From: a virus | Lineage: Duplodnaviria > Heunggongvirae > Uroviricota > Caudoviricetes | Direction: 5' to 3' (one strand) | IMG/VR virus record: IMGVR_UViG_2721755727_000004 | DNA: 14,254 nucleotides | Shown here: one piece after another, positions 613-1,530 of the stretch | Layout of the letters: each line of letters begins with the position of its first letter | How positions within the stretch are numbered: position 1 is the stretch's first letter | Notes under the pieces: generated by a model | Seen by the model: the letters and a program-made list of their open reading frames with translations, nothing else | Told to the model about the DNA's origin: nothing | Databases searched by the model: none | Made by a program: the position numbers and the translations under genes

Positions 613-662
613 ATAAAAACAACGGCCGTGCCACACGTCCGTTTCAATACTTAACGCACATG
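613..662. repeat. Diverged second copy of the icd 3' flank/terminator hairpin (roughly 80% identical by eye to 1475-1524)
   Basis: ataaaaacaacggccgtgccacacgtccgtttcaatacttaacgcacatg versus aataaaacaacgggcgtgttatacgcccgtttcaatatttaacacatg; imperfect hairpin AACGGCCG/CGTCCGTT. Confidence 0.6.
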
Positions 663-1104
663 TATTTTGGTTTAGTCATCATCCGGTTATATGTATTTTA
701 GCCAGGAACAGGTTAAATCATTCCTATATAACTCAAAAATTGAAACCTTATTCTCATGTCATGCTTATATTCATTATTATCGTTATATAAAAAGGCAACC
801 ATAATGTTTAGCAAATTGGCACAAAGTAGCATAAAGGCTATGTTTTAATTACAGGATGTTCAGTCATTTGAATGTATAACATTATAGCTAAACAAATCTA
901 AAACGAAGTCAATAATTTATTGCTTTCACAAAATCTCATTTTGTTTAACATCCATTGAGATTCCTTGCTTTAAATTTTATTTTATATAAGCCATCATTTT
1001 AATTAATTTATTTTTTTGAGGGGGGGGTAATATACTCATATGCAAAATCAAGAAATAAACATCCTAATGAACCATATTAAATACCGTGGGATAAGACATA
1101 ACAA

Positions 1105-1428
1105 ATGAAGTGGATAGTAATTGACACGGTAATTCAACCTACATGTGGTATATCTTTTTCAGCCATATGGGGTAATATGAAAATGATCATCTGGTATCAA
1201 TCTACTATATTTCTCCCTCCTGGCAGTATATTTACACCGGTTAAGTCTGGTATTATCCTTAAGGATAAAGAATATCCTATTACTATTTATCACATCGCAC
1301 CATTCAACAAGGATTTATGGAGTTTACTCAAAAGCAGTCAAGAGTGTCCTCCAGGAGAAAGCAAAATAACAAATAAATGTTTACATAATAGTTGCATTAT
1401 AAAAATATGCCCATATGGGCTCAAGTAA
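1105..1428 (+). CDS. iraM: Anti-adaptor protein IraM (stabilises RpoS by inhibiting RssB)
   Basis: 107-aa ORF beginning [15 protein letters not shown], very AT-rich; recognised from memory as IraM/YcgW. Confidence 0.7.
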
Positions 1429-1484
1429 TGGGCTTCATATAAATATGCTCGATATGCTATTAATAATATCCACATAAATAAAAC

Positions 1485-1507
1485 AACGGGCGTGTTATAC
1501 GCCCGTT
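1485..1507 (-). terminator. Intrinsic terminator of icd, possibly bidirectional (also downstream of iraM)
   Basis: Hairpin AACGGGCG-tgttata-CGCCCGTT at 1485-1507, followed on the minus strand by GTTTTATTTATG; lies 24 bp after the icd stop. Confidence 0.65.
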
Positions 1508-1530
1508 TCAATATTTAACACATGGAGAGA

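What the first reader, a model, noticed from the sequence alone, without database searches (positions are those of the whole stretch)
613..1524. A second, diverged copy of the icd 3' flank brackets iraM
The ~50 bp at 613-662 aligns at roughly 80% identity (by eye) with 1475-1524, the hairpin terminator just downstream of the icd stop codon. iraM and about 450 bp of very AT-rich DNA lie between the two copies. A direct duplication of target-site flank is what a decayed integrative element leaves behind, so iraM may sit in the relic of an older insertion at the icd hotspot, next to the current prophage.
Basis: partly seen in the sequence, partly recalled or inferred. Interest (0 to 1): 0.55.

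Follow-up and report, generated by a model that had tools for sequence, protein, structure and literature searches.

The report
Decayed icd terminator copy beside iraM
The stress-regulator gene iraM of E. coli K-12 lies between a working copy and a decaying copy of the icd terminator, and longer versions in other strains indicate that this 864-bp block is what remains of an old mobile element that inserted into icd before the e14 prophage did.

Summary
Window 616-664 and 1480-1526 are direct repeats 864 bp apart (39 of 47 columns identical; 0 of 500 shuffles reach the score). Both are the hairpin terminator that follows the icd stop codon.

The interval is present or absent as a unit. Of 5426 complete E. 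coli genomes, 3689 have flank, copy A and the iraM cassette. Another 1037 have the same flank joined directly to one B-type terminator and icd.

A rare long form (19 genomes) largely settles the origin. There, copy A is still followed in register by the icd stop codon and its last four codons. After that come an IS3 remnant, a ymgB-like gene, iraM, trkG, e14-type arm repeats, a second terminator and intact icd.

K-12 is a cut-down version of this island. It keeps a ymgB-like 5' remnant at 1039-1076 and has a 4.8-kb deletion ending at the A-tract at 1467-1479.

Copy A is best read as the native terminator, displaced and now decaying differently in each lineage. Copy B is probably the element-borne copy.

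This is a new member of a known kind (e14 and phage 21-type integration at icd). It also corrects a published statement that iraM lies on e14. Interest is moderate.

The parts
406..615 (.). Native chromosomal flank downstream of icd (carries ymgL). It is contiguous with the single icd terminator in iraM-less genomes.
   Evidence: Identical junction in STEC299, ST131 and MS1737. 92-95% identical between short-type and empty-type genomes. Annotation.
616..664 (-). Copy A: decaying copy of the icd terminator module. Inferred to be the native terminator displaced by the old insertion.
   Evidence: 39 of 47 columns identical to copy B, 0 of 500 shuffles reach the score. The canonical stem is broken in K-12 (C.T mismatch; the minimum-energy fold is no longer the terminator hairpin). 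Other lineages carry different damaging changes. The homologous copy in the N96 type is followed in register by the icd stop codon plus four codons.
665..710 (.). Junction DNA right of copy A. It stands where the long form has the icd 3' stub and an IS3 remnant (289 nt).
   Evidence: K-12 1-654 and 711-982 align to L043 10001-10636 and 10926-11199, and the segment between differs. No significant icd similarity in K-12. IS3-family match in the long form.
711..982 (+). AT-rich region upstream of iraM, conserved with the long island. It contains the annotated small ORF ymgK (804-848).
   Evidence: 74% identity to L043 10926-11199. Annotation. 26-33% G+C.
1039..1076 (+). Remnant of the 5' end of a ymgB/ariR-like gene that is intact in the long island.
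   Evidence: Local alignment to the start of the L043 ymgB-like CDS: score 36 against 20.9 +/- 2.7 for shuffles, 2 of 1000 reach it, at the syntenic position. The intact gene matches Pfam YmgB.
1105..1428 (+). iraM (anti-adaptor IraM), the retained cargo gene, from a phage-moron family.
   Evidence: Annotated as iraM. 72% amino-acid identity to the iraM of the long island. The long island's IraM matches phrog_4407 at E = 2.7e-50. Homologs of 63-70% identity sit between Q or stx and the holin gene in lambdoid and Stx prophages.
1429..1479 (.). iraM 3' region. Homology to the long island ends near 1466. The A-tract at 1467-1479 is the inferred junction of a 4.8-kb deletion that removed trkG, a 455-aa ORF and the arm repeats.
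   Evidence: Alignments of K-12 1405-1530 to L043 12044-12180 and to L043 16840-16965.
1480..1530 (-). Copy B: functional icd terminator module. Here it is also placed to terminate iraM from the other side. Inferred to be the element-borne copy.
   Evidence: 9-bp stem with 6 G-C pairs, followed by a T-run. Fold energy -16.5 kcal/mol. The hairpin is unchanged in Escherichia and Citrobacter except for one stem change in E. ruysiae. Phage 21 and e14-type elements carry the same module up to the same edge.
1531..1695 (-). icdC: an icd 3' end (last 165 nt) displaced when e14 integrated. It belongs with copy B as one module.
   Evidence: Annotated as a partial dehydrogenase. Identical to the last 165 nt of the intact icd in the e14-free strain G3/10. 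e14 DNA starts at 1696.

Best explanation
Copy A and copy B are two generations of the same 'icd 3' module', meaning the terminator that follows the icd stop codon.

Inferred sequence of events:
1. An e14-family integrative element that carried its own icd 3' end and terminator integrated into icd. This is how e14 and phage 21 integrate.
2. That pushed the native icd 3' end and terminator away from the gene, so that they came to lie next to the ycgX-side flank.
3. The element then decayed. Integrase and most genes were lost. The displaced icd 3' fragment was cut back by an IS3-associated deletion, to the stop codon plus four codons in the N96 type and to nothing recognisable in K-12.
4. In the K-12 type, a 4.8-kb deletion between the A-tract in front of iraM's own terminator and the A-tract in front of the element-borne icd terminator left only iraM and its upstream region.

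The result is: flank, copy A (native, no longer needed, decaying), a 0.8-kb iraM cassette, copy B (element-borne, now terminating icd and placed to terminate iraM), then icd.

In K-12, e14 later integrated at the same core and displaced copy B plus icdC in turn. K-12 therefore carries three nested modules.

Shown directly: the sequence relationships, the presence/absence polymorphism, the decay of copy A and the invariance of copy B. Inferred: the order of events, integrase-mediated integration, and which copy is native.
For: Repeat is real.

Empty site: the same flank is joined to one B-type terminator and icd. Counts are 1037 empty, 3689 filled and 19 long among 5426 genomes.

Long form (L043, L046): flank, copy A homolog, then TTAACATATTCTTGAT in register. 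This is the icd stop codon plus four codons, with 18 of 21 positions identical and a 13-nt exact run. BLAST extends in one segment into the icd CDS. Then follow an IS3 remnant, a ymgB-like gene, iraM, trkG at 90% identity to Rac trkG, and a transposase pseudogene. Next comes about 65 nt of the TTTTGATAA arm-repeat region that also abuts the icd module of e14 in K-12 and of e14-like elements in S. flexneri, Citrobacter and E. ruysiae. The locus ends with terminator, icd 3' end and intact icd.

K-12 keeps a stub of the ymgB-like gene, and its right junction lies in an A-tract microhomology.

Phage 21 attP is annotated as int, arm sites, terminator and icd 3' end, with homology ending at window 1478-1480. 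That is the same edge as the A/B repeat.

Copy A carries different destabilising mutations in K-12, S. flexneri, SWHEFF_68 and the N96 type. The hairpin of copy B, of single copies and of the e14 module is intact. It is unchanged across Escherichia and Citrobacter apart from one stem change in E. ruysiae.

IraM and YcgX belong to phage protein families, and IraM homologs are lambdoid morons.

In 14 of 15 genome pairs the last 165 nt of icd are more diverged than the first 1086 nt, by up to 18-fold. This fits repeated replacement of the module.
Against: No integrase, excisionase or recognisable core site survives in the short or the long form, so the element type rests on about 65 nt of arm-like repeats. 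These could belong to a later, separate e14-like element that decayed next to iraM.

K-12 itself has no detectable icd coding remnant beside copy A and no arm repeats beside copy B.

icd 3' alleles are mosaic even among short-type genomes, so the element origin of copy B cannot be read from its sequence.

In known lambdoid phages the iraM-type moron sits far from att.

It is unresolved whether iraM-less genomes never had the element or lost it. ycgX and flank identities place them inside the K-12-type haplotype group, with the N96 type outside. That favours secondary loss by recombination between A and B, yet the empty sites show no copy A markers.

The state of the interval in other Escherichia species could not be seen.
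Confidence: 0.75

Rival explanations
1. Copy A came in with the cassette. A DNA segment (616-1479) carrying its own diverged terminator-like end inserted exactly at the outer edge of the native icd terminator. The mechanism would be an integrase that uses the terminator hairpin as attB, or homology-facilitated illegitimate recombination. Copy B is then the untouched native terminator.
For: The single copy in iraM-less genomes is B-type from the first variable position onward, and copy B equals it. The left edge of the repeat is a recurrent junction point for unrelated DNA and for IS200C. The hairpin arms resemble an inverted-repeat core site.
Against: The A-type sequence occurs nowhere else. 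A scan of 185,579 species representatives found it only as copy A in E. coli. Older or less decayed copy A variants approach the B sequence: SWHEFF_68 has an intact stem and the N96 type has the B-type loop. So copy A looks like an in-situ decay product rather than a foreign allele. In the N96 type, copy A is followed by icd codons, and the arm repeats lie on the icd side. That is the polarity expected if the icd-proximal module is the imported one.
Confidence: 0.12
2. The arm repeats and icd-proximal module of the long form belong to a second, later e14-like element. iraM reached the locus by another route, for example as part of a lambdoid prophage remnant together with ycgX. Copy A would then be a by-product of that unrelated history.
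For: ycgX is itself of a phage family, and its E. albertii homolog is a lambdoid moron. The locus has clearly been hit repeatedly. Two transposase remnants lie inside the long island.
Against: No intermediate icd module lies between iraM and trkG or the arm repeats in the long form. K-12 does have such a module between iraM and e14. Copy A with icd codons still requires an insertion into icd that displaced a 3' end, whatever the cargo was.
Confidence: 0.1
3. The similarity is not common descent. It reflects convergent AT-rich terminators, a dispersed repeat family (REP or MITE-like), or a transposon target-site duplication.
For: Both copies are terminator-like hairpins in AT-rich DNA.
Against: The score is about 12 standard deviations above shuffles, and the match includes non-stem positions. 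Only the icd-linked copies match the hairpin pattern in whole genomes: two in a K-12-type genome, and none elsewhere apart from a few unrelated chance matches. The empty site is exact. A target-site duplication of about 49 nt that was already diverged fits no known transposition mechanism.
Confidence: 0.02

Closest known systems
e14 defective prophage integrated in icd of E. coli K-12 (Hill, Gray and Brody 1989, cited in PMC13626634; the integration logic itself is from my own knowledge)
   Same: It inserts into the 3' part of icd and carries a replacement icd 3' end plus terminator next to TTTTGATAA arm repeats. It displaces the previous 3' end (icdC) to the far side. The long iraM island ends on the icd side with the same arm-repeat region.
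   Different: e14 still has intE and xisE and about 15 kb of genes. The iraM relic has no recombinase. It has lost the displaced icd coding fragment in K-12 and is reduced to 0.8 kb. Its displaced terminator is decaying.
Phage 21 and related lambdoid phages that integrate at icd
   Same: attP is organised as int, arm sites, icd terminator and the last 165 nt of icd. Homology to the host stops at window 1478-1480, the same edge as the A/B repeat.
   Different: The arm repeats differ (TTTTGGGGAA against TTTTGATAA). No iraM is present in the icd-integrating phage records found. IraM homologs occur in Stx-type phages, at the Q-to-holin moron position.
Genomic islands at tRNA or tmRNA genes that leave a displaced 3' gene fragment as a direct repeat (general knowledge)
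   Same: There is a direct repeat made of the gene's 3' end. The element-borne copy completes the gene and the native copy is stranded at the far end. Islands accumulate in tandem at one site.
   Different: The target here is a protein-coding gene together with its terminator. In K-12 only the non-coding terminator part of the oldest repeat survives.
Lambdoid phage morons such as stx, trkG of Rac and iraL on the CFT073 potB island (PMC4045071)
   Same: iraM is a small AT-rich single-gene unit of a phage protein family (phrog_4407). In the long form it is accompanied by a trkG gene that is 90% identical to Rac trkG.
   Different: Here the moron has outlived its carrier. It is fixed in most E. 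coli as a chromosomal regulator that shares the icd terminator.

Membership tests
Relic of an icd-integrating (e14 or phage 21-type) element | An element-borne copy of the icd 3' end plus terminator abuts the icd 5' part. | tested here: inconclusive
   Copy B plus icdC occupies that position. In the long form the module is preceded by e14-type arm repeats. In K-12 the arm repeats are gone, and the mosaic icd 3' alleles do not allow copy B to be assigned to an element.
Relic of an icd-integrating (e14 or phage 21-type) element | The displaced native icd 3' fragment plus terminator lies at the far end, as a direct repeat next to the chromosomal flank. | tested here: met
   Copy A lies next to the flank as a direct repeat. 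In the N96 type it is followed in register by the icd stop codon plus four codons. In K-12 only the terminator part survives.
Relic of an icd-integrating (e14 or phage 21-type) element | An empty site exists in related genomes, and the interval is gained or lost as a unit. | tested here: met
   1037 genomes have flank, single terminator and icd. 3689 have flank, copy A and the cassette.
Relic of an icd-integrating (e14 or phage 21-type) element | A tyrosine integrase and excisionase belong to the element. | tested here: not met
   No int or xis lies between copy A and copy B in K-12 or in the 6.3-kb long island. This is expected of a relic, but it means the element family is inferred.
Relic of an icd-integrating (e14 or phage 21-type) element | The crossover core lies inside icd, 165 nt from the stop codon, and bounds the duplicated segment. 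| tested here: not met
   The displaced copy ends 15 nt into icd in the N96 type and before the stop codon in K-12. The core end has been deleted, with an IS3 remnant adjacent, so the original boundary cannot be seen.
Intrinsic (Rho-independent) terminator | A G+C-rich hairpin is followed by a U-run on the transcribed strand. | tested here: met
   Copy B has a 9-bp stem with 6 G-C pairs followed by UUGUUUU, at -16.5 kcal/mol. Copy A in K-12 meets it only weakly: a 5-bp stem in the scan, and the canonical stem is lost in the minimum-energy fold. Termination activity itself was not measured.
Phage moron (cargo gene iraM) | The gene family is carried by phages as an independent insert between conserved phage genes. 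| tested here: met
   phrog_4407 at E = 2.7e-50. 46 phage records carry homologs. Homologs lie between stx or Q and the holin gene in prophages. The long form has its own downstream hairpin terminator.
Transposon target-site duplication | A short, initially identical duplication is flanked by element ends with terminal repeats. | tested here: not met
   The repeat is about 49 nt and corresponds to a functional gene-end module. No terminal inverted repeats appear at 665 or 1479.
Dispersed repeat family (REP, BIME or MITE) | Many copies are scattered around the genome. | tested here: not met
   The hairpin pattern occurs only at icd-linked positions. There are two matches in a K-12-type genome and three stretches in S. 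flexneri (one at the current icd; the other two have the same iraM-side structure and may be one site).

The most novel reading that the evidence does not exclude
The icd terminator module may be more than a passive scar. Its outer A-tract edge could be a preferred breakpoint, and the A/B direct repeat could make iraM a reversible cassette. Four kinds of junction fall at that edge: the host-homology boundaries of three att-region types (phage 21, e14 and the iraM relic), a microhomology deletion, and same-site IS200C insertions into both copies. The 1037 iraM-less genomes would then be recurrent precise losses by recombination between A and B, which would tune the link between PhoPQ and RpoS signalling among lineages. 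A corollary is that K-12's icdC, usually described as the original icd 3' end, is itself second-hand element DNA.
Probability: 0.15. Interest if true: 0.55.

Novelty: new member of a known kind. Interest (0 to 1): 0.4.

Why it matters
IraM links PhoPQ and low-Mg2+ signalling to RpoS stability, and its patchy distribution among E. coli is already documented (PMC4045071).

This analysis gives that distribution a physical basis. iraM lies in an 864-bp unit bounded by two copies of the icd terminator, with exact empty sites in a fifth of complete genomes.

It traces the gene to a decayed integrative element at the well-known icd hotspot, and it corrects the published statement that iraM lies on e14.

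It shows that K-12 carries three nested generations of the icd 3' end, so the locus records successive integrations in order. Copy A and copy B are also a natural example of the same terminator under relaxed and under maintained selection.

None of this changes how such elements are thought to work.

Tried and rejected
- I looked for an icd coding remnant to the right of copy A in K-12 (665-1104). The score was no better than shuffles.
- I asked whether the A-type sequence is the icd terminator of another species or phage. The species-representative scan found it only as copy A in E. coli. Phage-borne copies match copy A no better than copy B does, at 83.7%.
- I compared icd 3' allele divergence to decide which copy is element-borne. 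The last 165 nt are hypervariable in nearly all pairs, including among short-type genomes, so the test was uninformative.
- I sought outgroup states through YcgX homologs. The 70-77% homologs are paralogs in a flagellar region and in a lambdoid prophage, not orthologs.
- Rfam gave nothing meaningful in 1-2000.
- The 455-aa ORF of the long island has no Pfam hit, only weak PHROG hits of unknown function, and no tblastn hit in phage records.
- The papers on icd evolution and on phage 21 and e14 integration specificity (looked up as PMIDs 9352899 and 9294425, both recalled from memory) are not held. Statements about the 165-bp crossover position therefore rest on my own knowledge and on the junctions seen here.
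- E. coli ECMA0423, which appeared to have a truncated cassette, turned out to have an IS1 junction.

Full report
**Context.** The window is the E. coli K-12 e14 region read towards icd. It contains:
- ycgX, 1-405 (+)
- iraM, 1105-1428 (+)
- the displaced icd 3' end icdC, 1531-1695 (-)
- e14 DNA from 1696 onward: mcrA, pinE, xisE, intE and lit

**Observation.** The repeat finder gives 616-658 against 1480-1522, 43 nt at 84% identity with spacing 864. A gapped local alignment gives 616-662 against 1480-1524 with 39 of 47 columns identical. Its score is 53, against 21.6 +/- 2.6 for dinucleotide shuffles, and 0 of 500 shuffles reach it. Against the single copy of an iraM-less strain the match extends to 664. 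Both copies score as hairpin plus T-run terminators on the minus strand.

Complete E. coli genomes were searched with 1-1700. In strains without iraM (STEC299, ST131, MS1737) the same left flank runs straight into one terminator and icd or icdC...ACATATTTATAAAAACAACGG|GCGTGTTATACGCCCG.... Junction-specific queries over 5426 genomes counted the states:

| State of the ycgX-icd interval | Genomes |
|---|---|
| Empty site (flank, single terminator, icd) | 1037 |
| Filled site (flank, copy A, iraM cassette) | 3689 |
| Long island (N96 type) | 19 |

The 864-bp unit is therefore present or absent as a whole. Many filled genomes have an intact icd and no e14 (H4-H19). iraM is thus not part of e14, contrary to a statement in PMC4045071.

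**What the repeated sequence is.** Phage 21 is annotated as int, attP arm sites, terminator and the last 53 codons of icd. It and 25 related phage records match window 1478-1697, so their homology stops at the same edge as the A/B repeat.

A scan of one genome per prokaryotic species with a degenerate hairpin pattern gave these results:
- The hairpin CAACGGGCGTGTTATACGCCCGTT is unchanged next to the icd 3' end in E. coli, Shigella, E. albertii, an unnamed Escherichia species and three Citrobacter species. E. ruysiae has one stem change.
- At least four unrelated kinds of DNA abut it at the same point: the ycgX flank, the iraM cassette end, phage 21 TTTTGGGGAA arm sites, and TTTTGATAA repeats.
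- The A-type variant occurs only as copy A in E. coli.

The TTTTGATAA class is the e14 type. It precedes the icd module of e14 in K-12, whose hairpin has compensatory stem changes. It also precedes that of an e14-like element in S. flexneri whose integrase gene is 83% identical in DNA sequence to intE.

**Decay of copy A.**

| Copy | Sequence feature | Consequence |
|---|---|---|
| SWHEFF_68 copy A | GGGCGTGCCATACGCCC | Stem intact, U-run broken |
| S. flexneri copy A | GGGTGTGCCATACGCCC | Stem weakened, -11.4 kcal/mol |
| N96-type copy A | B-type loop, TATGCCC | Stem weakened, -11.3 kcal/mol |
| K-12 copy A | Three further changes | Canonical stem lost in the minimum-energy fold |
| Copy B, single copies, e14 module | Unchanged hairpin | -15.3 to -18.1 kcal/mol |

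Copy A is a pseudo-terminator that drifts independently in each lineage. Copy B is conserved.

**The decisive comparison.** A diverged allele of the locus was found through a YcgX homolog (L042 to L044, and E. coli N96 = L046). It occurs in 19 complete genomes. Its order is:
1. bluR, ycgX and the flank.
2. The copy A homolog.
3. TTAACATATTCTTGAT, which is the icd stop codon plus four codons. It lies in register with the native module, with 18 of 21 positions identical and a 13-nt exact run. Only 6 of 1000 shuffles reach the score even without the register constraint, and BLAST extends in one segment into the icd CDS.
4. An IS3-family transposase remnant.
5. A homolog of K-12 711-982.
6. An intact ymgB/ariR-like gene.
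7. iraM, 72% identical in amino acids to the K-12 protein, followed by its own hairpin terminator.
8. trkG, 90% identical to Rac trkG.
9. A transposase pseudogene and a 455-aa ORF.
10. About 65 nt of the e14-type arm-repeat region, then terminator, icd 3' end and intact icd.

This is the anatomy expected of a decayed element integrated in icd. A stranded native 3' end lies on the far side, and an element-borne 3' end with arm repeats lies on the gene side.

**K-12 as a reduced derivative.**
- K-12 retains a stub of the ymgB-like gene at 1039-1076 (2 of 1000 shuffles reach the score).
- It lacks the IS3 remnant and the icd stub.
- Its homology to the long form ends near 1466. There an A-tract leads into copy B, consistent with a 4.8-kb microhomology deletion between the A-tracts that precede two terminators.

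**Cargo.** The long island's IraM matches phrog_4407 at E = 2.7e-50, and YcgX matches phrog_413. IraM homologs occur in 46 phage records. In prophages they lie between Q or stx and the holin gene.

**Polarity of the empty sites.**

| Comparison | ycgX identity | Flank identity |
|---|---|---|
| Short type against empty type | 99% | 92-95% |
| N96 type against either | 89% | about 66% |

Empty sites therefore nest within the K-12-type haplotype group. That favours secondary loss by recombination between A and B, which would have to cross over within AAAACAACGGGCGTG. However, import of the cassette by recombination into an empty lineage is not excluded, and the outgroup states could not be obtained. 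In 14 of 15 genome pairs the last 165 nt of icd are more diverged than the first 1086 nt, by up to 18-fold. The module has therefore been replaced repeatedly, and its alleles cannot assign copy B to an element.

**Verdict.** The repeat is real and homologous. It is the icd terminator module in two generations. iraM sits in the remnant of an older e14-family-like insertion at the icd hotspot. The mechanism is already known from e14 and phage 21. What is new is this particular relic, the nested three-module arrangement in K-12, and the phage origin and exact boundaries of the iraM presence/absence polymorphism. I found no description of any of this in the searchable literature.

Noticed in passing
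L005 (E. coli NMBU_W05E18) about 5292-6000 and 6874-7579. Corresponds to window 615/616 and 1479/1480.: IS200C is inserted at the same relative position and in the same orientation in the A-tract at the outer edge of both copy A and copy B. IS200C transposase genes are also annotated within the matched interval in STLEFF_47 (an iraM-less strain, one copy) and in KKa019 (two copies). The terminator edge looks like a specific IS200C target.
   Followed up: partly
L005 7585-7607 (copy B hairpin of NMBU_W05E18): The central 9 nt of the hairpin are inverted relative to all other copies (GTATAACAC instead of GTGTTATAC). This is a loop flip between the stem arms.
   Followed up: no
L045 3470-3530 (K-12 icd/e14 junction, outside the window): The e14-borne icd terminator is a third, diverged copy (CAACGGGAGCGTTACGCTCCCGTT). 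Compensatory stem changes keep an 11-bp hairpin at -18.1 kcal/mol, and three TTTTGATAA repeats precede it.
   Followed up: yes
L009 (E. coli MS1737) 1535-1665 and L010 (phage 21) 2440-2570: The flank-adjacent, displaced icd module of MS1737 matches the phage 21 attP module over the terminator and the first icd codons that were aligned, and sitA lies nearby. Flank-adjacent modules can therefore be phage-type, or phage 21 captured its module from such a host.
   Followed up: no
window 1-405 (ycgX); L039-L041: YcgX (DUF1398) matches phrog_413. A 70%-identical homolog in E. albertii lies between the lysis and terminase genes of a lambdoid prophage, so ycgX may itself be prophage-derived.
   Followed up: partly
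L002 (E. coli O157:H7 TW14359): A phage 21-type int and xis abut icd. The genome has no match to ycgX, the flank, copy A or iraM, so the whole ycgX-iraM interval is missing there.
   Followed up: no
L042 against L043 (same lineage): L042 lacks 435 nt (L043 10456-10890) that include the flank, the copy A homolog and most of the IS3 remnant. This shows that copy A can be lost secondarily while iraM stays.
   Followed up: partly
window 1394-1410 and 1432-1448; 1445-1463: Short direct repeats lie just left of copy B: GCATTATAAAAATATGC against GCTTCATATAAATATGC, and ATATGCT twice. Their significance is unknown, and they could be chance matches in AT-rich DNA.
   Followed up: no
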